A stretch of DNA of 64,000 nt from Actinobacillus vicugnae (GTDB taxonomy: Bacteria > Pseudomonadota > Gammaproteobacteria > Enterobacterales > Pasteurellaceae), in the NCBI RefSeq assembly GCF_901687125.1, contig NZ_CABFJY010000033.1, positions 48,101 through 112,100 on the forward strand, written 5' to 3'. Shown here piece after piece: positions 10,323 through 52,443 of this stretch; the stretch's first letter is position 1; each line of letters opens with the position of its first letter. The notes below the pieces were generated by a model, which saw nothing but the letters and a program-made list of their open reading frames with translations, had not been told where the DNA came from and did no database searches. The position numbers and the translations under genes were made by a program.

Positions 10323-11345
10323 TTAGTTGACCCATTCAGTTTTGATCTGACTAAAATCTAACTCATTAACACTTTGCTGAAAACGTAAAATATGCGTTTC
10401 CGCCTGATTATTCGGGTGCCAGTGAATAAAATTTTGCTGATCCGAGCTATAAAAACCAATAATTTTCTTAGATAGCCCTGAAGCGATATGCACCGTCGAA
10501 GTATCGGGAGAAATTAAAACATCTGCATGGCGAATTAATTCAATTGTATCAAACACCGTTTTAGTATTTTCATACACAAAAACATGTTCAAATTGGCTCG
10601 CAAGCTGTTTTAGTTTTGCAGTTACTTCAGGAAAAGTGAGTAAAACAATAGGTTTCACGCTATGTTTTCTCAAATAAGTAAGCAGTTCTATAATTTTACT
10701 ATCGCTAAAACGACGTGCCGAACCTGCTCCGAATAAGTTTAGCGCGATAAAATGGTTAAGCTGATTTTCCGCTAAATAAGTGTTAATTGCGTTAGCGCTT
10801 GCTTGATTTTGTGGCACTTCATAGCTGGTATCAATATTGCTAAACCCCGCCAGTTCTAGCGCTTGTTTATAGATCTGTGCAAAATGCTGTTGCTCATTTT
10901 TAACATTTAAACTAAACAACTTATAGTGTGACTTTTCATAGCCGATATAGCATTTCGCCTTAATTGTTCGTAAAAATAATAAATCTCTATTCCGCAACGT
11001 TACGGTAGGATCAATCAATAGATCATATTGTTCACGTGCCAATTGTTGGCCGCATTGAAGATAATCCGCAATGCTTTTGGTTTTCACTAAATATAATTGA
11101 TCTATATAAGGGTTATCCTCAAATAAATAAGCATTTTTATACGAACACACTACGCCAATATGAATTTCAGGAGATTGCTTTTTGATCTCTCGAAACACAA
11201 ATGAACTGACGATATAATCGCCAATTTTTCCATCTTGACGGAGGAATAGGATTTTTTTTAGTGGAAAAGGTTTGCTGCTGGCAGGATTTTTGATCTTTTT
11301 ATCTAAAAACAGCTTACCTAACGATAATCTAATCTTTCTTAACAT
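10323..11345 (-). CDS. GT9-family glycosyltransferase (LPS/LOS heptosyltransferase-like)
   Basis: The motif …KKILFLRQDGKIGDYIVSS…IGVVCS… is the typical GT9 N-terminus. The start among M1/M3/M6 is uncertain and the last candidate is used. The gene is AT-rich. Confidence 0.65.
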   Translation of the reverse strand: MLRKIRLSLGKLFLDKKIKNPASSKPFPLKKILFLRQDGKIGDYIVSSFVFREIKKQSPEIHIGVVCSYKNAYLFEDNPYIDQLYLVKTKSIADYLQCGQQLAREQYDLLIDPTVTLRNRDLLFLRTIKAKCYIGYEKSHYKLFSLNVKNEQQHFAQIYKQALELAGFSNIDTSYEVPQNQASANAINTYLAENQLNHFIALNLFGAGSARRFSDSKIIELLTYLRKHSVKPIVLLTFPEVTAKLKQLASQFEHVFVYENTKTVFDTIELIRHADVLISPDTSTVHIASGLSKKIIGFYSSDQQNFIHWHPNNQAETHILRFQQSVNELDFSQIKTEWVN

Positions 11346-11415
11346 TGCTTTCATATTCATTTTTACATACCATTATGCGAAATTTTTAGAGGCTCACACG
11401 GAATATATTATAGAG

Positions 11416-12447
11416 ATGAAATCTTTAGTGATAAAATTTTTTGGAACAAAAAAACATAAAAAACAGTTTTATTTTGCCAATATTCAATCCATTTTACTCA
11501 AACCCATTGGTGATGCCGTTGGTGATGCCATCGTACATACTTCTCATTTAAGGCAAATTAAAGAAGCGAATCCACATATCAAACTCGGTGTTTTAGTTAC
11601 TGAGCGAAATAAGTTAATCTACCAACATGCAGGATTTATTGATGCTATTTTAGATGAGTCTGTCTCAACTTATATACAAGAACACGCCAAATGGGATTTA
11701 TATCTCGATTTTATGCCGTCTTTTACCAGCAAAAGTATTTTTTGCGATTGGTTATTAGCACCTAAATTTAGTATAAACTTCGGAAAAAAAGAGAAAAAAC
11801 ATTATAATTTAAACACTGTAAAAAATTATGATTTTTCAACTCATATTCCCAAATACACACATATCAAAAACTATTTAAATTGCTCGATTATAAAAGATAA
11901 TATTAAATCTGATGCCGAATATATCGTTCCATTCAATTCAGAACAGGTTGAAAAAGTTGAAAAATTTTGGAATAAAAATAAATCATTACGTATTTTATTA
12001 AATCCTCAGGGTAGTAAAAATGAAATACCGCCAGCAGAATTAAAACAATTAATGGATAATATTCCTCAACATTATGTTGAAAAGATTGAGTTTTTACTCA
12101 CTAATACTCATGGTGCTCAAGAATATATTAATCGCTTAGGCATAAATTTAAAATTAAGCCCTAAAACGACTATTTTAGAATATTTTGCTTTTGTAAATTC
12201 TGCCGATATTGTTATTGCTGTAGATGGTGGCGGCGTTCATGTGGCTTGTGCCTGTGCAAAACCGTTATTGGCGTTCTATGCTAATAATCCTAAACTGACA
12301 AATATGTGGGCTCCTATCACTAAAAAAGGGGGGGATTCATTACTATTAGTGGGTAAAAATTTAGCTAATAATGCCAGTGAAACCTATAACTTTGATATTC
12401 AAGCTGCTTCCGAATGGCTAAATAATCAAATAAAAAAACATTTATAA
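11416..12447 (+). CDS. GT9-family glycosyltransferase (LPS/LOS glycosyl/heptosyltransferase-like), divergent from the previous gene
   Basis: From the internal ATG at 11416 the product begins MKSLVIKFFGTKKHKK…ILLKPIGDAVGDAIVHTS…, which is GT9-like. The region upstream of 11416 overlaps the divergent gene. The gene is very AT-rich and contains an A6G7 tract at 12322..12334. Confidence 0.6.
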   Translation: MKSLVIKFFGTKKHKKQFYFANIQSILLKPIGDAVGDAIVHTSHLRQIKEANPHIKLGVLVTERNKLIYQHAGFIDAILDESVSTYIQEHAKWDLYLDFMPSFTSKSIFCDWLLAPKFSINFGKKEKKHYNLNTVKNYDFSTHIPKYTHIKNYLNCSIIKDNIKSDAEYIVPFNSEQVEKVEKFWNKNKSLRILLNPQGSKNEIPPAELKQLMDNIPQHYVEKIEFLLTNTHGAQEYINRLGINLKLSPKTTILEYFAFVNSADIVIAVDGGGVHVACACAKPLLAFYANNPKLTNMWAPITKKGGDSLLLVGKNLANNASETYNFDIQAASEWLNNQIKKHL

Positions 12448-12454
12448 CTAAAAA

Positions 12455-12474
12455 GCTCCCTTTAAATAGGGAGC
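12455..12474 (+). terminator. Hairpin GCTCCCT-ttaaat-AGGGAGC after the GT9 gene
   Basis: 7-bp stem. The T-run after it is weak. Confidence 0.4.
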
Positions 12475-12675
12475 GTTATATTATTCTTTATCTCGTAAAT
12501 ACCAATTTTTTGATCCAAAATTTTCTTTCCCGCTATCTAAACATTTCTAATATTTAACGAACAGTATCAGTATCTACTATAGTTCTAGCGCCAAAAATAA
12601 TCTTTGGAAAAAGCTAAGTAAATTTTATCAATCGTTTTTTATTTTATCTAACGTTCCTTTTATCTCTCTAAAGCC

Positions 12676-12706
12676 TATAAAACAAAACCTCGCAATTGCG
12701 AGGTTT
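12676..12706 (-). terminator. rpmE terminator (AAACCTCGC-aatt-GCGAGGTTT followed by TTTTGTTTT on the minus strand)
   Basis: Perfect 9-bp stem plus a U-tract. Confidence 0.7.
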
Positions 12707-12723
12707 CGTCAATAATTCGGAAA

Positions 12724-12936
12724 TTATTTTGTGCTTGGGATTGAGAAACGTTTGTTGAAACGTTCAACACGACCACCAGTATCAACAACACGTTGTTTAC
12801 CAGTATAGAATGGGTGGCAGTTACCGCACACATCAAGATTTAAGTTTTTACCCACTGTTGAGCGAGTTTTGATTACGTTACCGCATGAACATGTTGCAGT
12901 AATTTCTGTATATTCTGGGTGAATACCTTGTTTCAT
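12724..12936 (-). CDS. rpmE: 50S ribosomal protein L31 (zinc-ribbon form)
   Basis: [20 protein letters not shown]…[13 protein letters not shown]…. Confidence 0.95.
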
Positions 12937-13325
12937 TGGAAAACCTCTAATGAAGCCATATCGCCACTTATCTTGTTATACCCTACATTATAATGCTGGT
13001 ATATCCGCTGATAAGTACCATATGTGATAAAAAATATGCCGAGTAATTACTCGACGCCAAAAAGAGTGCGTATTCTAGGGTATTTATCTATCAAGATCAA
13101 TACTCGCTCTACATTATTCACTGAATTTTCCACAAAATATCCCCAAAGCAACAGGCAATCAAAACAAATCATTTTTAATCAAGTTTTTCTCATGTTTTGT
13201 GAAGATGATCACAGATTTTCCTGAGATTTTTTGAGTATTACTTCAAAAATAGTGTAGAATGAATTTCATTATTGAATCTATTATTTTATAGAATATTTGT
13301 CATTTTCTTGTCTAGGAGTAAACAC

Positions 13326-15332
13326 ATGGCAGAACGTAGAGTATTAGCGAATGCAATTCGTTTTTTAAGTATGGACGCAGTGCAAAAAGCCAATTCTGGT
13401 CACCCAGGAGCGCCAATGGGTATGGCAGACATTGCAGAAGTGTTATGGCGTGATTTTCTAAAACATAATCCAACCAATCCTAAATGGGCTGATCGCGACC
13501 GTTTTGTTCTGTCCAATGGCCATGGCTCTATGCTTATTTATAGCCTTTTACATTTAACTGGCTACGATCTTTCAATCGAAGATTTAAAACAATTCCGCCA
13601 ATTACATTCTAAAACGCCAGGTCACCCTGAATATGGTTATGCTCCTGGTGTAGAAACCACTACTGGTCCATTAGGTCAAGGCATTACTAATGCAGTTGGT
13701 ATGGCGATTGCTGAAAAAACATTAGCAGCACAATTTAACCGTGAAGGTCACAAAATTGTTGATCACTATACTTATGCTTTCTTAGGTGACGGTTGTTTAA
13801 TGGAAGGTATTTCGCACGAAGCTTGTTCATTAGCAGGAACCTTAGGCTTAGGCAAATTAATCGCATTCTATGACGACAACAATATCTCAATTGATGGACA
13901 TGTTGATGGCTGGTTCTCAGATGATACAGCACAACGCTTTGAAGCATACGGTTGGCAAGTAATTCGTAATGTAGATGGTCATGATGCAGAACAAATTAAA
14001 TTTGCGATTGAAAATGCAAAAGCAGAAACCGAACGCCCAACATTAATTATCTGTAAAACCATTATTGGTTATGGTTCTCCAAACAAATCTGCGTCACACG
14101 ATTGTCACGGCGCACCATTAGGTAATGATGAAATTGCATTAACTCGCCAAGCGCTTAACTGGGAATATGCACCATTTGAAATTCCAGCTGAAATTTATGC
14201 AGATTGGGATGCTAAAGCACAAGGCTCTGTAGCAGAAAAAGAATGGAATGCTAAATTTGCAGCTTATGAAGCGGCATATCCTGAATTAGCGGCAGAATTT
14301 AAACGCCGTATGGCTGGCGATTTACCAGCAAACTGGGAAACAGAAAGCAAAGCATTTATTGAAAAATTACAAGCAAATCCAGCTGCTATCGCAAGTCGTA
14401 AAGCATCACAAAATGCAATTGAAGCTTATGCACACATTTTACCTGAATTCTTAGGTGGTTCTGCAGACTTAGCAAGTTCTAACTTAACCTTATGGTCTGG
14501 CTCAAAACCAATCCGTGCTGATCACAATGTAGATGGCAACTATATCAACTACGGTGTTCGCGAATTTGGTATGTCTGCAATTATGAACGGTATTGCATTA
14601 CACGGCGGTTTCATTCCTTACGGTGCAACCTTCTTAATGTTCTACGAATACGCACATAACGCAGTACGTATGGCGGCATTAATGAAACAACGTGCATTAT
14701 TTGTTTATACACACGACTCTATCGGTTTAGGTGAAGACGGCCCAACTCACCAACCAGTAGAACAAACCGCCTCATTGCGTTTTATTCCAAATTTAGAAAC
14801 TTGGCGACCAGCAGACCAAGTTGAGTCTGCAGTAGCATGGAAAGCAGCTGTTGAGCGTAAAGATGGTCCTAGCGCATTAATCTTTACTCGTCAAAACCTA
14901 GCTCAACAAGAACGTACTGCAGAGCAATTAGCTAACGTAGCTCGTGGTGGTTATATCTTACGTGAATGTTGTGAAAAAGGTGGTTGTCCTGATTTAATCC
15001 TTATTGCAACAGGTTCTGAAGTGGATTTAGCGATGAAAGCGGCTGATGTTTTAGATGCAGAAGGTGTGAAAGTACGCGTTGTATCAATGCCAAGCACGAA
15101 TGTATTCGACAAACAAGATGCGGCATATCGTGAAAGCGTATTACCGAGCACAGTAACAAAACGTGTTGCTATCGAAGCACAATTATCCGATTTCTGGTAT
15201 AAATACGTTGGCTTTGAAGGTCGAATTGTTGGCATGAATAGCTTTGGTGAATCAGCGCCAGCTGACCAATTATTTAAACTATTCGGCTTCACTGTTGAAA
15301 ACGTAGTAGCAAAAGCAAAAGAAATTCTATAA
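13326..15332 (+). CDS. tktA: transketolase
   Basis: [41 protein letters not shown]… with the thiamine-diphosphate motif [13 protein letters not shown] lies 8 nt upstream of the ATG at 13326. The track's longer N-terminus is spurious. Confidence 0.95.
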
Positions 15333-37672: not shown

Positions 37673-38212
37673 TTAGACCGCTTTCATTGATTTTTTATCC
37701 TGTTTACTACGCATTTTTTCCAAAATTTTACTCATAAAATCAGGCATTTTTTTGATCGGCTCAATGATAATTTCATCTGCTAGTAACTGGTTTTCTAACG
37801 CTAAATACATATTCAGCACCGTATAAACATCAACTTGGTGTTGATTTTTAAAGAAATTCATTAAGCGATATATTTCAATTTGAAGTTGTAATTTATGTGC
37901 AATTCTTTGGTAATTTTCGACCGCTTGTAGGCTCACATTCACATTACTGATCACAATTAGCACGGACTTTTGCGGATATTTTTTAACAAATGCCCATGCC
38001 TCCTCTAATTTTTGTTCAGCCAGTTTTTTCGCTAATTGAAAGCGCTCTTTTGTCCAAATATACCGCCCATTTTGGTATAGAAATTGGTCATTTTCAATAT
38101 GAAAAATTTCTGCCATTGGAAATTGGCGCTTAAACGCTTCAATTTGCTGTTGAGCAAAGGTCGATTTTCCCGAACCAGAATGCCCACGAATAATAATCAA
38201 TTTTTTCATCAT
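37673..38212 (-). CDS. uncharacterized P-loop NTPase (kinase-like AAA domain)
   Basis: Walker A GHSGSGKST at residues 10-17. There is no SD, and the ATG lies 2 nt after the rplT terminator U-tract. Confidence 0.55.
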   Translation of the reverse strand: MMKKLIIIRGHSGSGKSTFAQQQIEAFKRQFPMAEIFHIENDQFLYQNGRYIWTKERFQLAKKLAEQKLEEAWAFVKKYPQKSVLIVISNVNVSLQAVENYQRIAHKLQLQIEIYRLMNFFKNQHQVDVYTVLNMYLALENQLLADEIIIEPIKKMPDFMSKILEKMRSKQDKKSMKAV

Positions 38213-41712: not shown

Positions 41713-43644
41713 CTACTCTTCGCCTAATAATTTAAGTTCACGAGCCTTCACTTGGTTTTTTAGAATTTCAACAAATTCTTCAATAGTGAATGTGCCTAAA
41801 TCCGCACCTTTACGAGTACGTACCGATACTTTGCCCGCTTCGATTTCTTTATCGCCACAAACTAACATATACGGCACGCGGCGTAAGGTATGTTCACGTA
41901 CTTTAAAGCCCACTTTTTCGTTACGTAAGTCTGATTTCGCTCGGATACCTGCATCTGAAAGTGCTTTTGTCACTTTTTGTACATAATCCGCTTGGCTATC
42001 TGTAATATTCATCACCACCGCTTGTGTCGGTGCTAACCATGTTGGGAAGAAACCAGCGTACTCTTCAGTAATAATACCGATAAAGCGTTCGATTGAACCT
42101 AAAATCGCACGGTGAATCATCACTGGTGTACGACGACCATTATCTTCTGCAACATAAGAGGCATCTAAGCGACCTGGTAATGCGAAGTCTAACTGAATCG
42201 TACCGCATTGCCATTCACGATCTAAACAGTCACGTAATGCGAACTCAATTTTCGGACCATAGAATGCGCCTTCACCTTCTTGAATTTCATAACTTAAACC
42301 GTTCGCAGTTAACGCTTTCGCTAAACCGTCTTCCGCACGATCCCACATTGTATCTTCACCGATACGATTTTCAGGACGGGTCGAAAGTTTTACTTGAATA
42401 TTACTAAAGCCAAACGTGCTGTAAATGTCGTACACCATTTTGATACAGCTGGTTACTTCAGATTCAATTTGATCTTCAGTACAGAAAATATGCGCATCAT
42501 CTTGGGTAAAACCACGCACTCGCATTAAGCCGTGTAATGAACCTGATGGTTCGTTACGGTGGCACGAACCAAATTCTGCCATACGAATTGGTAAATCACG
42601 GTACGATTTTAAACCTTGGTTAAAGATTTGCACGTGACCTGGGCAGTTCATCGGTTTAATTGCATATTCACGGTTTTCAGATTGAGTGGTGAACATTAAA
42701 TCTGCATAGTTTTGCCAGTGACCTGTACGTTCCCAAAGCACTCGATCCATCATAAACGGACCTTTTACTTCTTGGTAATCGTACTCTTTTAATTTGGTAC
42801 GCACGAAAGTTTCAAGTTCACGGAAGATTGTCCAACCATCGTTGTGCCAGAACACCATACCTGGTGCTTCTTCTTGCATATGATATAAATCTAATGCTTT
42901 ACCAATACGGCGGTGGTCACGTTTTGCCGCTTCTTCTAAACGAGTTAAATATTCGCTTAATTGTTTTTTATCTGCCCACGCTGTGCCGTAAATACGTTGT
43001 AACATTTTATTTTTGCTATCGCCACGCCAATATGCACCCGCTACTTTTTGTAATTTAAAGTGATGGCAGAAACGCATATTTGGCACGTGAGGACCACGAC
43101 ACATATCAATATATTCTTGGTGATGATATAACGCTGGCGTTGCAGTGCGTTCAATATTTTCATCTAAAATCGCCATTTTGTATGGTTCGCCACGTTTTTC
43201 AAACGTATCACGTGCTTCTTGCCAGCTAACGCGTTTTTTTACAACGTCATAATTCGTTTTAGCCAGTTCAAGCATACGTTTTTCGATCGCATCTAAATCT
43301 TCTTGTGTGAGTGAGCGATCTAAATCTACGTCATAATAGAAACCATTGTCGATTGTCGGACCAATCGCCATTTTTACATCTGGGAATAATTGTTTGATCG
43401 CATGACCTAATAAGTGCGCACATGAGTGACGAATGATCTCTAAACCGTCTTCGTCTTTTGCCGTAATAATTTCAAGTGAGCTATCTTCAGAAATGAGGTC
43501 GCACGCATCACGGCGTTCGCCATTTACACGCCCTGCGATGGTTGCTTTTGCAAGCCCTGCACCGATTGAAAGAGCTACTTCCATGACAGAAACAGGATTA
43601 TCAAATTGGCGTTGTGAGCCGTCTGGTAAAGTGATAATAGGCAT
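41713..43644 (-). CDS. thrS: threonine--tRNA ligase
   Basis: [28 protein letters not shown]… is the TGS domain. Class II motifs follow. AAGGAT lies upstream of the ATG at 43644. Confidence 0.95.
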
Positions 43645-43861
43645 TTTTATATCCTTGTTACAGTGGTCACCCATACGAGAGGTGACTTGTTGGTTTAAAA
43701 ATAAAAACCGCTTACAAGCGGTCTAATTTGAATCGTTTTTTACAATTTGTTTTACATCACCCCAACCATGGATGAATCGCAAAACGAGTGAATTTTATCA
43801 CAAATTCTCAATAAGCGGTCTTATTTATCCGCTAATTTGCAAAATTTCTATAAAAATTTAG

Positions 43862-43890
43862 GCTTCACTGCCGTATAGGCAGCTTCGAGA
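43862..43890 (+). CRISPR. Solitary, degenerate type I-F CRISPR repeat with no spacers
   Basis: CTTCACTGCCGTATAGGCAGCTTCGAGAAA contains 21 consecutive nt identical to the I-F consensus GTTCACTGCCGTA(T/C)AGGCAGCT. This includes the Cas6f hairpin CTGCC-GTATA-GGCAG. It lies 80 bp upstream of cas1. No second copy is found anywhere in the window. Confidence 0.6.
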
Positions 43891-43971
43891 AAAAAAAACT
43901 AATTTATTTCGGTGCGCTTGCCCTTTCATTACCATAGTGGCAATTTAAATTATAAATGACAAGGAGCTTGT

Positions 43972-44928
43972 ATGAAAAAAACACCTTATATTCCTTCTTC
44001 AGATTTAAAAACAATTTTACATTCTAAACGTGCAAATATTTATTATTTAGAACATTGTCGAATCTTGTTGAACGGGGGGCGAGTTGAATATGTTACAGAT
44101 CAGGGAAGCGAGTCACTTTATTGGAATATTCCTATTGCAAATACTACTTGTCTGCTATTAGGAAGCGGAACATCTGTCACGCAAGCAGCTATGCGTGAAT
44201 TATCCAAAGCAGGAGTGATGGTTGGCTTTTGTAGCGGCGGAGGTACACCACTATTCAATAGCACAGAAGCCGAAATTGGTTGTGATTTTTTTAGCCTTCA
44301 AAGTGAATATCGTCCTGTCGAATACCTACAGCAATGGTGTCAATTTTGGTTTGATAACGATAAGCGGTTAAATTCGGCAAAAACATTGCAATTACTTCGT
44401 TTACAATTACTGCTCCGTACATGGAATAAATTTGATTGGGAATATTCTCAAACAAAACTTACGGAGCTAGTACAGCAATATCAAGCAGAATTTACTCAAG
44501 CAAAAGATAGTCAATCGCTATTAGCCGCAGAAGGGCGTTTAACCGCTAAGTTATATGCATTAGCCAATCAGGCAACAGTTAATGACGAAGATTTTAAAAG
44601 AGAAAGTGGAAAAGAAGGTGCAAATCAATTTTTAGATCATGGAAATTATTTAGCTTACGGACTCGGTGCAACAGCTTGTTGGGTATTAGGTTTATCGCAT
44701 GGATTAGCGGTATTACATGGAAAAACGCGTCGCGGAGGATTAGTATTTGATGCGGCAGATATTATTAAAGATGCTATGATTCTACTTCAAGCATTTATCT
44801 CTGCCCAAAATGGAGATAATGAAAAACAATTTCGTCAAACTTGTATTAATAATCTACTTCGGTTTGAAGCACTAGATATTATCATCAATACGCTTAAACA
44901 ATTAGCTGCTGAAGGCGCCAACTCATGA
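43972..44928 (+). CDS. cas1: CRISPR-associated endonuclease Cas1, subtype I-F
   Basis: …LKTILHSKRANIYYLEHCRILLNGGRVEYVTDQG…NIPIANTTCLLLGSGTSVTQAAMRELSKAGVMVGFCSGGGTPL…GLAVLHGKTRRGGLVFDAADIIKD… is collinear with Yersinia/Pseudomonas I-F Cas1. The AAGGAG SD is present and the stop overlaps the cas2/3 start (ATGA). Confidence 0.9.
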   Translation: MKKTPYIPSSDLKTILHSKRANIYYLEHCRILLNGGRVEYVTDQGSESLYWNIPIANTTCLLLGSGTSVTQAAMRELSKAGVMVGFCSGGGTPLFNSTEAEIGCDFFSLQSEYRPVEYLQQWCQFWFDNDKRLNSAKTLQLLRLQLLLRTWNKFDWEYSQTKLTELVQQYQAEFTQAKDSQSLLAAEGRLTAKLYALANQATVNDEDFKRESGKEGANQFLDHGNYLAYGLGATACWVLGLSHGLAVLHGKTRRGGLVFDAADIIKDAMILLQAFISAQNGDNEKQFRQTCINNLLRFEALDIIINTLKQLAAEGANS

Positions 44929-47900
44929 ATATTTTATTGATTAGCCAATGTCATAAAAATGCACTTACTGAAACAAGACGTATATTAGATCAATTTGCCG
45001 AGCGTTGTGGTGAACGCTGTTGGCAAACGGCAATTACCCAAGTTGGATTAGAAACCCTTCATTCGATGTTACGTCAAACCGCGCGCAAAAATACTGCTGT
45101 GGCGTGCTATTGGACACATGGCAAAAACTTAACTGAATTATTGTGGATTGTTGGCGATAAAAGCCAATTTAATACCGAAGGGCGAGTGCCAACTAATCGA
45201 ACTAAGCGGAATATCTTGCGTACCGAGGATGAAAACGGTTGGTTAAGTGCATATTCTATCCAAATCTTGACCGCTATTGCGGCATTGCTACATGATATTG
45301 GCAAAGCGAATCTCGCCTTCCAGCAAAAATTAAAACCTAAAGCGAAATTTTTCCCTGATTGTTATCGACATGAATGGATTTCTGCTCGCTTATTCGAAGC
45401 GATGATTGCAGGTTGTACAACAGATGAACAATGGCTCACCCGTTTAGCAAATTGGCAAGGCTATGTTGAATCTAATCCTCATTGGCTACCAAACCTCACA
45501 TTAAATGCCGACAAACATGATTTTCTGCATAATTTTTCTCATTTTCCACCGCTTGCAAAAGCGATTTTGTGGCTTATTCTTTCACATCACAAATTGCCTT
45601 TTACTCAAAAAACGCTCAATTGCCATCGTGATCAAGAACATATTCTAAGGGAACATTTTATAACCAAGACCGCAGTAGTTCCCTTCTATTGCTTTTTAGC
45701 ACCTGTAGAACATTGGGTGATGAATTATAGCGAGCATCCTCATCCAGAAAATTTTTGGCAATTTGCAACATTACCGATGGAAAGCAAATCTTGGCAAAAA
45801 GCAATGCAACGTTGGGCGAATAAGGCGCTTAATCATGCACCGTTGCGTGACCTATCTTTACTGAACCAAACAATTAACGATCCTTTTCTACTACTTTTAT
45901 CACGTTTGTGCTTAATTGTTGGCGATCATCATTACTCTTCTGTGCCAGCTGATCGCCAGTTAGGTGATATGCTTTTTTTTGAAAAATTAATTGCAAATAC
46001 CGATAGAAAAACGAAACATCCAAAACAAGCACTTGATGAACACTTACTTGGCGTTTGTAAAACCAGTGCAAAATTTGCCCGCTTGTTACCTAAATTATCG
46101 AAAGCATTACCAACTGTTCAGCAACATCGTCCGTTTATGAAACGGACAAATGTTGAGCGTTTTAAATGGCAAAATAAAGCATTTGAATTAGCTCAAACGT
46201 TACAAGTTGAAAGTGACCAAGCAGGCTTTTTCGGGGTAAATATGGCAAGTACAGGGCGAGGCAAAACGCTCGCTAACGCAAAAATCATGTATGGATTAAC
46301 AGCCCCTAAAAAAGGCGCTCGCTTCACTATTGCACTTGGTTTACGTGTATTAACCCTACAAACAGGTATCTCGCTTCGACAAAAGCTCATGCTGTCATCC
46401 GAACAACTTGCCGTTTTAGTTGGGGGAGCAGCTAATAGGGAATTATTTGAATTACAACATGAAGCTGAAATGGCAACGTATGGCAGTGAAAGCGCTCAAG
46501 CTTGGTTAAATGAAAATGAAATTTATGGCATGAATTTTACTGAAAATGGAATAGATAAAAATGCATTTGGTACAATCTTAGTCGATAAGAAGGCTCAATA
46601 ACTCCTCTACGCTCCCATTGTAAGCTGTACCTTAGATCATTTGGTTCAAGCAAGTGAAACCATTCGAGGAGGTAAACATATTGTCCCTACTTTACGTTTA
46701 CTCACGTTAGATCTTGTATTAGATGAACCCGATGATTTTAGCCAAAATGATCTACCTGCTCTCAGCCGTTTAGTACATTTAGCGGGTATGTTTGGTAGCA
46801 AGGTCTTATTGTCTTCCGCCACACTCACACCCGATCTGATTATTGGGCTGTTTAATGCTTATCAAGCAGGGCGAAAAATTTATAATCGTCATCAAGCTAT
46901 TAACACCGAATCGGCTATCTGTTGCGCTTGGTTTGATGAGTATAAACAGCAACAACAGCAATGCGCTACCGCCAATGATTTCGAACAGCTACATCACCAA
47001 TTTACCCTCGCACGAGCAGAAAAATTGGCACAAGCTCCTGTACGCCATAGAGCTGAAATTATCCAGCTCCCTGCACTTTCGTCTATAGAAAATCAAGGGC
47101 TGGATTACACTACACTCGGAAACACATTACTTGAGCACGCCATCACTTTACACCATAGATATGCCCAACAAGATTCGGTTTCTCAAAAATATGTGAGTAT
47201 TGGTCTTATCCGCTTTTCAAATATTAGACCGATGATCCCTTTAGCTAAAAGATTATTTAACCTGCCTTTAAATAGTCAATTTAGCCAGTATAAAATACAT
47301 TTATGTTGCTACCACTCTCGTCAGCTACTAATGCTACGCTCTGAACTAGAAGAAAAGCTAGATAGAATCTTAAATCGTAATGACCCTAACTTGCTTTTTT
47401 CTCAACCAGAAATTGCTAGCGCACTTATGCAAGATCAGGCTACTCATCATATCTTTATTGTATTAGGCAGCCCTGTAACAGAAGTTGGTAGAGATCACGA
47501 TTATGATTGGGCGATCGTTGATCCTTCTTCTATGCGATCTATCATTCAACTTGCAGGGCGGGTATGGCGACATCGTTCAGAAAAAATCGCAAACCAAGCT
47601 AATATTTTCCTATTACCAACCAATTGGAAAGGGCTAAAAAATCGAAATAAGGGTTTGGATCCTATTTTTTATCGCCCAGGTTTTGAAGATAAGAATAACA
47701 AATTAGCAAGTCACAAAACTGTTGATTTAATTCATCCTGAGCATTTAGATCAGATAAATGCCATTCCTCGCATCATAAAAGCAGAGAGATTACAGCCACA
47801 AAACAATTTGGCGGATTTAGAACATAACGTTATTGCAGATTTATTAAACAATAAAGAAATTAATCGAGTAAATGCCTATTGGAAAGACGATTTAACCAAT

Positions 47901-48281
47901 AGGATAAATGCTAATTTGCCACTTATCACTCCGTTTAGGAGAAATGAAGGACAATGGCAAACAGATATAGTGTGCTTGCCAAGTGAACAAAATGAATGGG
48001 GATTTATCTTTAAAACGAAAGAAAAAGCTTGGGAAAACCCGAATGACGAAAGTAATTATTTACCTGAAATCCGCTACCAAAAACTGGAAAATCGCTCTCC
48101 ATGGGTCACACCATGGCTTACAACACCTTTAAATCAAGCACTTACCCAACTAGGGGAACAACTTGACGAACAGGATCTCATTCAGGTCGCACTACGTTTT
48201 GCAACAATTTCGCTCCAACATTACGGTAAAGAATTACCTATTTGGCGATTTAATGAAAGCTTAGGCTTTTGGCAGGAGTAG
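44925..48281 (+). pseudogene. cas3: cas2/3 (Cas2-Cas3 fusion, subtype I-F) interrupted by one in-frame TAA at 46599..46601
   Basis: Track ORFs 44925..46601 and 46641..48281 are in the same frame (both ≡0 mod 3). Translating through the TAA gives …VDKKAQ*LLYAPIVSCTLDHLVQASETIRGGKHIVPTLRLL…, which aligns without a gap to the I-F Cas2/3 helicase region. The Cas2 N-terminus, HD motifs (HDIGK, SHHK, GDHHYSS), Walker A (ASTGRGKTL) and DExD (LDEPDD) are all intact. Confidence 0.85.
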
Positions 48282-48369
48282 TAAGCGGTCACATTTGCTT
48301 AAAATTTTGCATATCTTATCGATAAAAAAAAGGATAGAATTCTGAAGTTGTTATTTTGTGAGTAGAAAG

Positions 48370-49257
48370 ATGAAATCCCCAAAACGATTTTTTGAATGTA
48401 TTGCGATTGTAGGTAAACCTCGCCATGATATTGCCTTAGAGACACATTTGGCAGTTTATAATTGGCTAAAAGATCGCCATTACAGCGTATTATTAGAAAA
48501 AAATATCGCCCAACAACTAAACCTCCCTGATGGCAAAACTTTAGATGAAATTGGTCAGCAGGCTAATTTAGTAATTGTGATAGGCGGTGACGGAAATATG
48601 CTTGGAATGGCGCGCCAATTGGCTAAATATCGTATTCCACTGATTGGTATTAATCGTGGAAATTTAGGTTTCCTGACCGATATTGCACCACAATCTGCTT
48701 TCGAACAGTTGCACAATTGTATTGAGCGTGGTGAATATGTAATTGAAGAACGTTTCTTGCTTGAAGCCCGTATTGAACGTAACGGTAAAATTATTGCGAG
48801 CAATAATGCGCTAAATGAAGTGGTGATTCATCCCTCACAAGTAGCGAGAATTATTGAATTTGAAGTTTATATTGATGGCAAATTTGCTTTTTCACAACGT
48901 TCAGACGGGCTAATTATTAGCACGCCAACGGGTTCAACTGCTTATTCATTATCTGCTGGCGGACCAATTTTAACGCCAAATATGAATGCAATCGCACTGG
49001 TGCCAATGCATCCCCACACGCTTTCTTCTCGACCGCTAGTTATTGATGGCGATAGCCAAATTTCTTTGCGCTTTGCTCAACATAATCAACCTAGCCTAGA
49101 AGTGAGTTGTGATGGTCAATACGATATGCCGTTTACACCTGAAGATCGTATCATCGTCACCAAAAGCCCTGACCCACTACATTTATTGCATCTAAAAGAT
49201 TATAACTATTTCACCGTGCTAGGCTCTAAACTAGGTTGGTCTAGCAAACTATTTTAA
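48370..49257 (+). CDS. nadK: NAD+ kinase
   Basis: …[11 protein letters not shown]…GGDGNMLG…[10 protein letters not shown]… is collinear with E. coli NadK. The ATG at 48370 is preferred over the GTG at 48358. Confidence 0.9.
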
Positions 49258-50745: not shown

Positions 50746-50930
50746 TCCTCCCCTGCTTAAAGGCAGGGGATTCCTACTAGCTCCCACGACTTTGTCGTGG
50801 GCTACTCTCGGTGGGTTCTTGTTGCTGATGGCTAATGCCATTCACTTCACAAGCTAACTGGACGTGTCCCGCCCTTAATACATTCATTGCTCCAACCACG
50901 TCCGCATTTTCACGCCAGCCACATTCCACA
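50746..50930 (-). ncRNA. Putative TnpB omega-RNA (reRNA) scaffold overlapping the tnpB 3' end and right end
   Basis: Inferred from the general architecture of IS200/IS605 TnpB loci together with the two stable hairpins at and just beyond the tnpB stop. The extent is not measurable from sequence alone. Confidence 0.3.
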
Positions 50931-52000
50931 CATTCAAATTTCGCCTGTGTTTGGCGATTTTCTTTGGCAATATGCCCACAACTCGGGCAAGTGCGACTGG
51001 TATTTTTCGGATTAACCGCAACTAAATAACCACCCTGCCAAGCGGATTTGTATTCCAACTGACGGCGGAACTCAAACCAACCCTGATCTAAAATCGAACG
51101 GTTTAATCCCGATTTTGGGGCAACATTTTTGCCCTGTTGCTCGGCTGTTCCTTTGGCTGATTTGCTCATATTCACCACCTGCAAATCTTCAATGAAGATC
51201 ATTGCGTGGTTTTTGCTGATTTCTGTTGAGATTTTATGCAAGTAGTCCTGACGAGCATTGCGGATTTTGTGATGGATTTTGCTGACTTTTGCTTTCTGTT
51301 TCAGCCAGTTTTGGCTAAATTTCACTTTTCGGCTTAATGATTGTTGTGCCTTTCTTAGGCTTTCTTGATGTTTTTTGAAACTGTTTAACGGTTCAAAAAA
51401 TTTGCCATTGGAGAGTGTCGCAAAACGTGCCACGCCCATATCTATGCCGATTTCTGAACCCTGATGTTGCGGTATTTCCTGTTCAAATTCCGTTTGAATG
51501 CTCACAAAAAATTTACCGCATTTTTTGCTTACGGTTACATTTTTAACTTCACCTACAATTTCACGGCTATTACGATAGCGAACCCAACCGATTTTTGGTA
51601 GATACAAGCGGTCATTTGTCTGCTCAATTTTGCAACCTTGCGGATAGCGAAAACTGTCTTTTACGCCTTTTTTCTTGAATTTAGGAAAGTCTGATCGCTT
51701 GCTGAAAAAGTTACGGTAAGCACTTTCTAAATCTTTAAGAGACTGTTGCAACACTTGGCTATGGCAGGCTTTCAACCACTCAAATTCTTTTTTCCATTGA
51801 GGCAAAAAGTTCGCTAATTTGGTGTAGCTAAATTTGATTTTCGGATCTTGTTCGTACGCCTGTTTTTGCCAATCCAACGCCTTATTAAACACAAAACGAG
51901 AACAACCACAAAATTGTGCAATTTTGCGTTGCTGTTCTCCATTTGGTCTAATTTCAAATTTAAAGGCTTTACGAATGAGCATAGGTATCCGATAATTCAA
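50777..52000 (-). CDS. tnpB: IS605-family transposase-accessory protein TnpB (OrfB; RNA-guided endonuclease, RuvC-like plus zinc finger)
   Basis: 407 aa. Zinc finger CPSCGH…CVECG. Typical OrfB N-terminal and central regions. Confidence 0.9.
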   Translation of the reverse strand: MNYRIPMLIRKAFKFEIRPNGEQQRKIAQFCGCSRFVFNKALDWQKQAYEQDPKIKFSYTKLANFLPQWKKEFEWLKACHSQVLQQSLKDLESAYRNFFSKRSDFPKFKKKGVKDSFRYPQGCKIEQTNDRLYLPKIGWVRYRNSREIVGEVKNVTVSKKCGKFFVSIQTEFEQEIPQHQGSEIGIDMGVARFATLSNGKFFEPLNSFKKHQESLRKAQQSLSRKVKFSQNWLKQKAKVSKIHHKIRNARQDYLHKISTEISKNHAMIFIEDLQVVNMSKSAKGTAEQQGKNVAPKSGLNRSILDQGWFEFRRQLEYKSAWQGGYLVAVNPKNTSRTCPSCGHIAKENRQTQAKFECVECGWRENADVVGAMNVLRAGHVQLACEVNGISHQQQEPTESSPRQSRGS

Positions 52001-52026
52001 ATTTTCAACAATTATACACTTGGTCT

Positions 52027-52443
52027 ATGGAAAAAGAAATGGATATTAGACGTGGTCGCCACGTTGTTTTTAATTTACATGTTCACTTAGTCTTCGTTAC
52101 CAAATATCGCAGACACGTTTTCACAAAAGCCATTCTTGATGATTTAAAACTGATTTTTGAGAATGTTTGTCGTGATTTTGAAGCTGAACTTGTCGAGTTT
52201 GACGGAGAAGACGATCACGTTCATTTGCTTGTGAATTACCCTCCCAAAGTCGCTATTTCAAATTTGGTGAATAGTCTGAAAGGTGTTTCAAGTCGAATGA
52301 TTAGACAGAAGAATTATCCCACAATTAAGCAAAAATTATGGGGAAATGCTCTGTGGTCTCCATCTTACTTTGCAGGAAGTTGCGGTGGTGCTCCTATCTC
52401 AATTATTCGCCAATACATCGAACAGCAAAAAACACCTGATTAG
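52027..52443 (+). CDS. tnpA: IS200/IS605-family Y1 (HuH) transposase TnpA
   Basis: 138 aa. HuH motif (HVHLVF / DHVHLLV) and the catalytic Tyr region. Confidence 0.9.
   Translation: MEKEMDIRRGRHVVFNLHVHLVFVTKYRRHVFTKAILDDLKLIFENVCRDFEAELVEFDGEDDHVHLLVNYPPKVAISNLVNSLKGVSSRMIRQKNYPTIKQKLWGNALWSPSYFAGSCGGAPISIIRQYIEQQKTPD

What the first reader, a model, noticed from the sequence alone, without database searches (positions are those of the whole stretch)
43862..48281. Adaptation-module-only remnant of a type I-F CRISPR-Cas system (solitary repeat + cas1 + cas2/3, no csy1-3 or cas6f, no array) between thrS and nadK
What the sequence shows: a good Cas1 (I-F) gene, a full-length Cas2/3 reading frame of about 1118 codons, and exactly one I-F-type repeat 80 bp upstream of cas1. 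nadK starts 89 bp after cas2/3, so there is no space for the four Csy/Cas6f genes. No second repeat occurs in the 64 kb window.

Background: canonical I-F loci are CRISPR-cas1-cas2/3-csy1-csy2-csy3-cas6f-CRISPR.

Inference: the interference module and arrays have been deleted, possibly with the help of the IS200/IS605 element 2.5 kb away. This leaves a decaying locus, or conceivably an adaptation/nuclease module used in trans or co-opted. Such minimal cas1+cas2/3 remnants are rarely annotated, because CRISPR finders need at least 2-3 repeats.
Basis: partly seen in the sequence, partly recalled or inferred. Interest (0 to 1): 0.8.

Follow-up and report, generated by a model that had tools for sequence, protein, structure and literature searches.

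The report
Broken-down I-F CRISPR-Cas locus remnant
This is what remains of a type I-F CRISPR-Cas immune system in Actinobacillus vicugnae after a deletion removed its effector genes and almost all of its array and a stop codon broke cas2/3, so it is an ordinary case of a defence locus being lost.

Summary
The window comes from Actinobacillus vicugnae. Its Cas1 is already named Cas1f in RefSeq (WP_150539540.1).

**Observation: mostly real.**
- cas1 (43972-44928) is a clear I-F Cas1.
- The next frame (44925-48281) is a clear I-F Cas2/3.
- One I-F repeat lies at 43863-43890.

**Two corrections.**
- cas2/3 is not an open 1118-codon frame. An in-frame TAA at 46599-46601 (codon 559) splits it between the helicase Walker A and DExD motifs.
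- The repeat is not quite solitary. A 33-nt spacer and a degenerate terminal repeat (43924-43951, 17/28) follow it.

**Comparison with relatives.** A. pleuropneumoniae, A. lignieresii and A. equuli carry a complete I-F system at the same thrS-nadK site. Their order is csy1-csy2-csy3-cas6f, leader, array of 13-41 repeats, cas1, cas2/3, with nadK about 90 bp after cas2/3.

**The deletion.** In the window, homology to the thrS-csy1 spacer region stops at about 43857-43861 and resumes at the penultimate repeat. One deletion of at least 4.2 kb therefore removed the csy promoter region, all four effector genes, the leader and most of the array.

**Timing and cause.** Apart from the stop, cas1 and cas2/3 show no excess substitutions, so inactivation looks recent. 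The IS200/IS605 element is not at the junction.

**Verdict:** an ordinary decaying locus of low novelty.

The parts
41713..43644 (-). thrS (threonine--tRNA ligase), the left flanking gene
   Evidence: It scores 819 bits on TIGR00418. It is an exact match to WP_150539539.1 of Actinobacillus vicugnae. It occupies the same flank as in the intact loci L081-L087.
43645..43861 (.). Retained part of the ancestral thrS-csy1 intergenic region, up to the left edge of the deletion. It contains a USS-like AAGCGGTC at 43813-43820.
   Evidence: blastn gives 92.7% identity over 286 nt to the A. pleuropneumoniae thrS-csy1 region, ending at window position 43857. The alignment shows that homology may run on to TAG at 43859-43861 and is then lost.
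43863..43890 (+). I-F CRISPR repeat, the ancestral penultimate repeat. Its sequence is CTTCACTGCCGTATAGGCAGCTTCGAGA, matching the genus consensus at 26 of 28 positions, with both changes in the 3' handle.
   Evidence: It matches Rfam CRISPR-DR4 at 34.3 bits, E = 2.8e-6.
43891..43923 (+). The single remaining spacer, 33 nt long
   Evidence: It lies between the two repeats. No protospacer was found in IMG/VR by exact search, in GenBank phages, or in the window and fetched loci.
43924..43951 (+). Degenerate terminal (trailer-end) repeat, TTTCATTACCATAGTGGCAATTTAAATT, matching the consensus at 17 of 28 positions
   Evidence: Only 7 of 127,946 positions reach 17 or more matches. This one lies at the expected phase (+61) and strand. 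It aligns in register with the terminal repeats of A. equuli, A. pleuropneumoniae and A. lignieresii, just upstream of cas1.
43972..44928 (+). cas1 (type I-F), an intact ORF of 318 aa
   Evidence: It scores 475 bits on TIGR03637 and is identical to WP_150539540.1. It is 91-92% identical to Cas1f of A. pleuropneumoniae, A. lignieresii and A. equuli. dN/dS is 0.04. Three of 155 near-invariant prolines are changed, which is within the range of the controls.
44925..48281 (+). cas2/3 (type I-F Cas2-Cas3 fusion), a pseudogene with one in-frame stop
   Evidence: It covers TIGR02562 positions 1-552 and 574-1110 and carries PF21384, PF18019 and PF22590. It is 80% identical at the amino-acid level to A. 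pleuropneumoniae Cas2/3. All 241 near-invariant residues are retained. Neither half has a RefSeq protein accession.
46599..46601 (+). Premature TAA at codon 559 of cas2/3. It lies between the Walker A motif (GRGKT) and motif II (DEPD).
   Evidence: Homologues have K, Q or D in this column, and the closest relatives have K. A single base change from AAA or CAA would therefore give the stop.
48370..49257 (+). nadK (NAD kinase), the right flanking gene
   Evidence: It scores 568 bits on NF002579 and is an exact match to WP_150539541.1. It has the same position relative to cas2/3 as in intact loci.

Best explanation

**Ancestral state.** The ancestor carried the arrangement typical of this genus between thrS and nadK: csy1-csy2-csy3-cas6f, a 143-bp leader, the CRISPR array, cas1 and cas2/3, all on one strand.

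**The deletion.** One deletion of at least 4.2 kb, plus an unknown number of repeat-spacer units, removed four things: the csy promoter region, all four effector and processing genes, the leader, and the whole array except its trailer end.
- The left edge lies in the thrS-csy1 intergenic region, at about 43857-43861.
- The right edge lies 1-5 nt before the penultimate repeat, at 43863.
- What remains is repeat, 33-nt spacer, degenerate terminal repeat, then cas1 and cas2/3.

**The stop codon.** Separately, a single-base change created a TAA at codon 559 of cas2/3. It separates Walker A from the DExD box of the Cas3 helicase.

**Functional consequences (inferred, not measured).**
- There is no Cas6f to process crRNA and no Csy complex to bind it.
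- There is no leader to direct spacer integration.
- There is no functional Cas3 helicase-nuclease.
- The locus can therefore neither interfere nor adapt, and cas1 is a still-intact gene on its way to decay.

**What is shown and what is inferred.** Shown here are the gene identities, the stop codon, the synteny, the deletion boundaries and the lack of excess substitutions. Inferred are the loss of function, the recency of the events and their order.
For: **Identity of the parts.** Cas1f and Cas3f are identified, and the repeat.

**Stop codon.** It is seen.

**Organism and existing annotation.**

**Intact loci at the same site.** Four A. pleuropneumoniae genomes, one A. lignieresii and two A. 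equuli carry intact I-F loci between thrS and nadK. Their order is csy1-4, array, cas1, cas2/3. Their arrays have 13-41 repeats of CTTCACTGCCGTATAGGCAGCTTAGAAA, and the 143-bp leader is conserved.

**Boundaries.**
- The window's trailer end is homologous to the relatives' terminal repeat and cas1 start.
- The window has no leader or csy similarity.

**Vertical descent.** Divergence of the cas genes from the sister species (dS 1.2-1.7) matches that of flanking nadK and glyA (dS 0.9-2.1). The locus was therefore inherited at this site rather than newly acquired as a fragment.

**Recency.**
- dN/dS is 0.04 for cas1 and 0.08 for cas2/3, the same as between two intact loci.
- Relative-rate tests are essentially non-significant: only 1 of 28 comparisons reaches p<0.05 (0.047).
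- Cas2/3 keeps 241 of 241 near-invariant residues.

**Effector genes elsewhere.** No Csy1 or Csy3 attributable to A. vicugnae was found in a 5.8-billion-protein collection that does hold its thrS, nadK, glyA, Cas1 and both Cas2/3 fragments. The Csy1 hits jump from 90% identity (A. equuli) to 58% (Pasteurella).

**Published background.** A complete I-F variant has been reported in all 26 complete A. pleuropneumoniae genomes examined (PMC8942016). Isolated or partial cas loci are common, about 12% of type I loci (PMC5294841).
Against: - cas1 is fully open and its catalytic His and Asp residues are in place. cas2/3 is otherwise pristine. These are also what one would expect if the two genes were still under selection.
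- The TAA could be a sequencing error or specific to this strain. Only one assembly exists and no reads were available.
- The rest of the A. vicugnae genome could not be searched directly.
- The protein collection is clustered at 90% identity. A csy gene at least 90% identical to the A. pleuropneumoniae one could be hidden inside a cluster.
- Expression was not tested. A simple scan found no sigma-70-like promoter on the + strand upstream of cas1, but this is weak evidence.
Confidence: 0.85

Rival explanations
1. The two genes form a functional stand-alone adaptation or nuclease module. Cas1 and Cas2/3 would be retained by selection after the effector genes were lost. They would act in trans with a second I-F locus or array elsewhere in the genome, or serve a non-defence role such as DNA repair or recombination. 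The stop codon would be an error, be read through, or be tolerated as a split protein.
For: - cas1 is intact.
- Cas2/3 keeps 241 of 241 near-invariant residues.
- dN/dS is low, and the rate has not accelerated relative to intact orthologues.
- The N-terminal 558-aa fragment still contains the Cas2 and HD domains.
Against: - The in-frame TAA separates Walker A from motif II of the helicase.
- The leader is gone, and only a trailer-end mini-array with a mutated handle remains.
- No A. vicugnae Csy1 or Csy3 was seen.
- cas2/3 is independently broken in three other Actinobacillus lineages, which points to decay rather than retention.
- dS is saturated, so low pairwise dN/dS mostly reflects the long period before the deletion.
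- From the literature as I recall it (not checked here), I-F adaptation needs the Csy complex in the systems that have been tested.
Confidence: 0.08
2. The structure is an assembly artefact. The real genome would hold a complete I-F locus, and the assembler would have collapsed or skipped the csy operon and array.
For: - The source is a draft assembly; the contig is 186 kb.
- CRISPR arrays are often collapsed by short-read assemblers.
Against: - The missing segment includes about 4.2 kb of unique sequence: the csy promoter region, four genes and the leader. Repeat collapse cannot remove unique sequence.
- The left junction lies in unique intergenic DNA with no CRISPR repeat that could mis-join.
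- No A. vicugnae Csy1 or Csy3 protein appears in the collection that holds this assembly's other proteins.
- The retained repeat carries two private substitutions, and the following terminal repeat is strongly degenerate. Both fit a real trailer end.
Confidence: 0.04
3. The remnant arose by IS-mediated deletion. The nearby IS200/IS605 element would have caused the loss of the csy genes and the array.
For: An IS200/IS605 element lies 2.5 kb downstream of cas2/3, with TnpB at 50777-52000 and TnpA at 52027-52443.
Against: - The deletion is on the other side of cas1-cas2/3, about 7 kb from the IS.
- nadK and glyA lie between them, intact and in the ancestral order.
- The junction at 43857-43863 contains no IS sequence, only up to 5 nt of filler.
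- The glyA-BOF interval is an independent insertion site, and A. pleuropneumoniae carries a different IS there.
Confidence: 0.03

Closest known systems
[quoted passage not shown]
   Same: - It occupies the same chromosomal site, between thrS and nadK.
- cas1 is orthologous (91-92% aa) and cas2/3 is orthologous (80% aa).
- The repeat family is the same, with the unusual C as first base.
- The cas1/cas2-3 ATGA overlap is the same.
- The roughly 90-bp gap to nadK is the same.
   Different: - The window lacks csy1, csy2, csy3, cas6f, the 143-bp leader and all but one spacer of the array.
- Its cas2/3 carries a nonsense codon.
Degraded I-F loci in the same genus: A. ureae ATCC 25976 (L001), A. lignieresii (L085) and A. 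pleuropneumoniae strain L084. PMC8942016 also reports A. pleuropneumoniae D13039 with a disrupted cas8f.
   Same: Each shows independent inactivation of the same ancestral locus at the same site, and cas2/3 is hit repeatedly.
   Different: - The lesions differ between lineages.
- A. ureae lost cas1 and the 5' end of cas2/3 next to an IS, and has a frameshift.
- L085 has a frameshift near codon 335.
- L084 has a nonsense codon at 666.
- L084 and L085 keep the csy genes and the array.
- Only the window has the csy-leader-array deletion.
Isolated or orphan cas loci as surveyed by Zhang and Ye 2017 (PMC5294841)
   Same: It is a cas locus without a usable companion array, interpreted as the remnant of a CRISPR-Cas system.
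   Different: That survey defined isolated loci as having at least 3 cas genes. This locus has two genes, one of them a pseudogene, and its origin can be traced to a specific deletion.
Type I-F3 Tn7-associated (CAST) systems
   Same: Both are reduced derivatives of type I-F.
   Different: The pattern of loss is the opposite. I-F3 keeps the Csy/Cascade genes and an array and lacks cas1 and cas2/3. This locus keeps cas1 and cas2/3 and lacks the Csy genes. No Tn7 genes are adjacent. The description of I-F3 is from my own knowledge; no tns or tniQ search was run, and only the flanking ORFs were scanned against NCBIfam and Pfam.

Membership tests
Type I-F CRISPR-Cas system (complete, functional) | cas1 of the I-F subtype | tested here: met
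   It scores 475 bits on TIGR03637 against a cutoff of 150, and the ORF is an intact 318 aa.
Type I-F CRISPR-Cas system (complete, functional) | Intact cas2-cas3 fusion gene | tested here: not met
   The sequence is clearly Cas3f with an N-terminal Cas2 domain (TIGR02562 and PF21384). However, the frame carries an in-frame TAA at codon 559.
Type I-F CRISPR-Cas system (complete, functional) | Effector genes csy1/cas8f, csy2/cas5f and csy3/cas7f | tested here: not met
   tblastn with the A. pleuropneumoniae proteins finds nothing in the 64-kb window at E <= 1. No A. vicugnae Csy1 or Csy3 was found in the protein collection. The whole genome could not be searched directly.
Type I-F CRISPR-Cas system (complete, functional) | cas6f (csy4) crRNA endonuclease | tested here: not met
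   tblastn finds no hit in the window.
Type I-F CRISPR-Cas system (complete, functional) | CRISPR array of 28-nt I-F repeats with a leader | tested here: not met
   Only one near-consensus repeat, one 33-nt spacer and one degenerate repeat remain. The leader sequence conserved in relatives is absent.
Actinobacillus thrS-nadK I-F locus (orthologous locus) | Position between thrS and nadK, with cas1-cas2/3 immediately upstream of nadK | tested here: met
   The flanks, orientation and spacing are the same as in L081-L087.
Actinobacillus thrS-nadK I-F locus (orthologous locus) | Divergence of the cas genes consistent with that of the flanking genes (vertical descent) | tested here: met
   dS is 1.25-1.38 for cas1 and 1.46-1.66 for cas2/3, against 1.7-2.1 for nadK and 0.94-1.5 for glyA. 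dS is saturated, so this is only approximate.
Casposon / stand-alone Cas1 elements | A Cas1 from outside the CRISPR subtypes, associated with a PolB polymerase and terminal inverted repeats | tested here: not met
   This Cas1 is an I-F orthologue, 92% identical to those of canonical loci. The flanking genes are thrS and cas2/3.

The most novel reading that the evidence does not exclude
After the effector operon, leader and array were lost, Cas1 and Cas2/3 of A. vicugnae stayed under purifying selection as a stand-alone module. The module would serve DNA repair or recombination in a naturally competent host, or supply adaptation in trans. The TAA at codon 559 would then be a sequencing error or a very recent change specific to this strain. 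The evidence cannot exclude this reading. Both genes are otherwise unblemished, and only one assembly of the species was accessible.
Probability: 0.07. Interest if true: 0.6.

Novelty: new member of a known kind. Interest (0 to 1): 0.15.

Why it matters
The practical value is mainly for annotation and for comparison within the genus.

- **Status of the species.** A. vicugnae should be scored as lacking a functional I-F system, even though it has an annotated Cas1f.
- **Defined event.** The loss can be traced to a specific deletion, mapped to within a few bases, and not to a vague 'orphan cas gene'.
- **Wider pattern.** This remnant joins independent cas2/3 lesions in A. ureae, A. lignieresii and one A. 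pleuropneumoniae strain. Together they show that the ancestral Actinobacillus I-F locus is being lost repeatedly. That is relevant to how CRISPR immunity and natural competence coexist in Pasteurellaceae.
- **Limits.** It does not reveal a new mechanism or a new type of system.

Tried and rejected
1. **Looking for the window's own genome or a conspecific.**
   - Exact look-ups of Cas1 and GlyA in the contig index found nothing.
Its best match was A. ureae at 75%, and it missed the closer A. pleuropneumoniae and A. equuli loci. Those were recovered through the Cas1 protein search and contig look-ups.
2. **Searching for a second array or other structured RNA in the window.**
   - Tandem Repeats Finder and Rfam at gathering thresholds found no CRISPR array.
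   - The direct-repeat families in the window are uptake signal sequences (ACAAGCGGTC), not CRISPR repeats.
3. **Searching for a protospacer for the single spacer.** Nothing was found in IMG/VR by exact search, in GenBank phages by blastn, or in the fetched loci and the window.
4. **Testing for relaxed selection.**
   - Pairwise dN/dS, Tajima relative-rate tests and counts of changed invariant residues showed no clear signal.
   - The three Pro substitutions in Cas1 are not unusual: 13 of 120 controls have at least 3.
5. **IS involvement in the deletion.** This was rejected because of the geometry and the sequence at the junction.
6. **Assembly collapse.** This was rejected because unique sequence is missing.
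7. **Whole-genome absence of csy genes.** It could only be approached indirectly, through the protein collection. Clustering at 90% identity leaves that test short of conclusive.


Full report
**What is at the coordinates**

ORF listing and translation show three features between thrS (41713-43644, minus strand) and nadK (48370-49257, plus strand).
- A 28-nt CRISPR repeat lies at 43863-43890.
- An intact 318-codon ORF lies at 43972-44928.
- A 1119-codon frame at 44925-48281 overlaps that ORF by ATGA.

Profile searches identify the two ORFs.
- The first ORF scores 475 bits on the NCBIfam Cas1f model (cutoff 150).
- The second frame matches the Cas3f model over positions 1-552 and 574-1110.
- The second frame also carries the Pfam I-F Cas2 domain, the Cas3 HD domain and a Cas3 C-terminal domain.

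The full 28-mer matches Rfam CRISPR-DR4 at E = 2.8e-6 on the + strand. The gene identifications and the repeat are therefore real.

**Two corrections to the observation**

First, the cas2/3 frame is not open.
- An in-frame TAA lies at 46599-46601 (codon 559), and the ORF finder returns 558-aa and 546-aa pieces.
- The stop falls between the helicase Walker A motif (GRGKT) and motif II (DEPD).
- Homologues have K, Q or D in this column, and the nearest relatives have K. A single base change would give the stop.
- The two halves appear in the protein collection only as unnamed gene calls without RefSeq protein accessions. Cas1 has one, WP_150539540.1 'type I-F CRISPR-associated endonuclease Cas1f [Actinobacillus vicugnae]'.

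Second, the repeat is not strictly solitary.
- Sixty-one nucleotides after it starts, at 43924-43951, a 28-mer matches the genus consensus repeat at 17 of 28 positions.
- Only 7 of 127,946 position-strand combinations in the window reach 17 or more matches. These include the true repeat and this one.
- In a multiple alignment the 28-mer sits in register with the terminal repeat of the arrays of relatives, about 20 nt before the cas1 start, as in A. equuli.
- The remnant is therefore the trailer end of an array: repeat, 33-nt spacer, degenerate terminal repeat.

**Organism**

Exact look-ups identify thrS, nadK, glyA, Cas1 and several neighbours as proteins of Actinobacillus vicugnae on a 186-kb contig. 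The window is dense in the Apl-type uptake signal sequence ACAAGCGGTC, as expected for this branch of the Pasteurellaceae.

**Comparison with relatives**

A protein search with Cas1 found 91-92% identical Cas1f in many A. pleuropneumoniae genomes and in A. lignieresii and A. equuli.

Fetching the encoding contigs showed the same layout in four A. pleuropneumoniae genomes, one A. lignieresii and two A. equuli.
- The order is thrS (minus strand), then csy1-csy2-csy3-cas6f, a gap of 1.3-2.7 kb, cas1, cas2/3, then nadK about 90 bp further on and glyA.
- The gap is a CRISPR array of 13-41 repeats with consensus CTTCACTGCCGTATAGGCAGCTTAGAAA.
- A conserved 143-bp leader after cas6f precedes the array, and the array ends 20-36 nt before the cas1 ATG.

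[quoted passage not shown] A second study describes I-F as universal in that species (PMC12242098).

In this genus the effector operon and array lie upstream of cas1. The short cas2/3-nadK distance is normal even in intact loci.

**The deletion**

- *Left edge.* The window is 92.7% identical to the A. pleuropneumoniae thrS-csy1 intergenic region up to position 43857. The alignment allows homology to run on to TAG at 43859-43861.
- *Right edge.* The next base, or the next few bases, lead straight into the repeat at 43863.
- *What is missing.* The window has no similarity to the csy genes or to the leader, by tblastn at E <= 1 and by blastn.
- *Size.* Measured on A. pleuropneumoniae locus L081, the missing segment runs from about 215 bp upstream of the thrS start codon to the penultimate repeat. 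It is 4.2 kb without the array and 5.3 kb with that strain's array. On A. equuli it would be about 6.6 kb.
- *USS pair.* In relatives the left breakpoint falls between the two halves of an inverted uptake-signal pair. The window keeps only the left half.
- *No IS.* No IS sequence lies at the junction.
- *The nearby IS.* The IS200/IS605 element (TnpB 50777-52000, TnpA 52027-52443) sits between glyA and the BOF-domain genes. It is about 7 kb away, on the far side of intact and syntenic nadK and glyA. A. pleuropneumoniae carries a different IS at that same spot, and A. equuli and A. lignieresii carry none. That insertion is therefore independent and is not implicated in the deletion.

**Age and selection**

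- *Vertical descent.* Against A. pleuropneumoniae and A. equuli, cas1 is about 82% and cas2/3 about 77% identical at the nucleotide level. dS is 1.2-1.7, similar to flanking nadK (1.7-2.1) and glyA (0.9-1.5). The locus was therefore inherited vertically at this site.
- *dN/dS.* It is 0.04 for cas1 and 0.08 for cas2/3. Two intact loci compared with each other give 0.03 and 0.06.
- *Relative-rate tests.* With seven outgroups, the tests show no clear acceleration in the window lineage. All are non-significant for Cas1. For Cas2/3 the window-specific changes are slightly more numerous in 13 of 14 comparisons. Twelve of those are non-significant; the remaining one reaches p=0.047, and the next lowest is p=0.053.
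- *Invariant residues.* The window's Cas2/3 keeps all 241 residues that are at least 97% conserved among 76 homologues, where controls lose 2.2 on average. Cas1 has three changed near-invariant prolines (P109L, P242S, P272L), but 13 of 120 controls also have three or more.
- *Conclusion.* The deletion and the nonsense mutation are recent relative to the split between species. This is the usual look of a freshly inactivated locus. On its own it cannot rule out continued selection on the two genes.

**Effector genes elsewhere in the genome**

- *Csy3.* With A. pleuropneumoniae Csy3 the hits go from the 98% cluster to 75% unnamed metagenomic contigs. The cluster holds A. pleuropneumoniae, A. equuli and A. 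lignieresii proteins and a 115-aa A. ureae fragment.
- *Csy1.* With Csy1, the fastest-evolving subunit, the hits go from 99% (A. pleuropneumoniae) and 90% (A. equuli subsp. haemolyticus) straight to 58% (Pasteurella multocida). No hit falls in the 60-89% range where an A. vicugnae orthologue would be expected, and none is named A. vicugnae.
- *Caveat.* This supports absence but is not conclusive, because clustering at 90% identity could hide a very similar copy.

**Decay elsewhere in the genus**

cas2/3 is independently broken in several other lineages.
- One A. pleuropneumoniae genome has a nonsense codon at 666 (L084).
- A. lignieresii has a +1 frameshift near codon 335 (L085).
- A. ureae has a copy truncated at its 5' end beside a masked IS, plus a frameshift. 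This copy is of the A. pleuropneumoniae type (91-95% aa). No cas1 is present.
- The literature adds a disrupted cas8f in A. pleuropneumoniae D13039.

Partial or isolated cas loci are common in general, at about 12% of type I loci (PMC5294841).

**Most likely function**

The locus is non-functional.
- Without Cas6f and the Csy proteins no crRNA can be processed or used.
- The retained repeat has two changes in the 8-nt handle (CUUCGAGA instead of CUUAGAAA).
- The leader that directs integration is gone.
- The Cas3 helicase is split.
- Whether cas1 and the 558-aa Cas2-HD fragment are still expressed is unknown. A simple scan found no sigma-70-like promoter on the + strand upstream of cas1.

I estimate about 85% for the plain-remnant reading. 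I give about 8% for a retained stand-alone function and a few percent each for an assembly artefact or an IS-mediated origin.

**Novelty**

The kind of object, a degraded CRISPR-Cas locus, is well known. The intact parent locus has been published for sister species, and the cas1 gene is already correctly named in RefSeq. The new points here are the exact mapping of the deletion in A. vicugnae, the overlooked stop codon and the overlooked mini-array. Interest is low.

Noticed in passing
window 46599-46601; L084 codon 666 of cas2/3 (locus 10954-14301); L085 about 11960; L001 8712-11638: cas2/3 is independently inactivated in four Actinobacillus lineages among the roughly eight loci examined. The lesions are a nonsense codon, another nonsense codon, a frameshift, and an IS-associated truncation with a frameshift. 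The literature adds a disrupted cas8f in A. pleuropneumoniae D13039. This may reflect recurrent selection against Cas3 activity in naturally competent hosts, or simply frequent decay.
   Followed up: partly
window 50777-52443: A complete IS200/IS605 element (TnpB on the minus strand, Y1 TnpA on the plus strand) is inserted between glyA and the BOF-domain genes. A. equuli and A. lignieresii have no insertion there. A. pleuropneumoniae has a different IS, of the rve family, at the same spot, so this looks like an insertion hot spot.
   Followed up: partly
whole window, e.g. 43712-43747, 43809-43844 and 48279-48314: Apl-type uptake signal sequences (ACAAGCGGTC) are very dense, with more than 15 copies, often as inverted pairs after genes. 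Copies flank the cas block. The left breakpoint of the deletion falls between the two halves of an inverted USS pair that relatives carry in the thrS-csy1 intergenic region.
   Followed up: partly
L002, L003-L006, L015 compared with L081-L087: I-F gene order differs within the Pasteurellaceae. In Aggregatibacter, Rodentibacter, Mesocricetibacter and Gallibacterium the csy operon is convergent and lies downstream of cas1-cas2/3. In Mesocricetibacter (L002) and Gallibacterium (L015) the array lies between them; in the Aggregatibacter and Rodentibacter loci (L003-L006) it follows the csy operon. In Actinobacillus the order is csy1-4, array, cas1, cas2/3, all on one strand.
   Followed up: no
L015 7793-8309 (Gallibacterium melopsittaci): cas1 appears fragmented, with hits only to residues 3-117 and 248-316, next to an intact cas2/3, a 4-repeat array and a csy operon. 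Phage-like genes lie immediately upstream. This is another partly degraded I-F locus.
   Followed up: no
window 37673-38212 (minus strand): A 179-aa ORF is named 'recombinase RecA' in RefSeq (WP_244298095.1). It gives only weak AAA_33, AAA_18 and nSTAND3 Pfam hits and is far too short to be RecA, so it is probably misnamed.
   Followed up: no
window 43972-44928: Cas1 carries three substitutions at prolines that are otherwise near-invariant: P109L, P242S and P272L. Two are second-position C-to-T changes in CCN codons and one is a first-position change. P242S lies 7 residues before the putative catalytic His249. The count is not statistically unusual, since 13 of 120 homologues have at least 3 such deviations.
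   Followed up: yes
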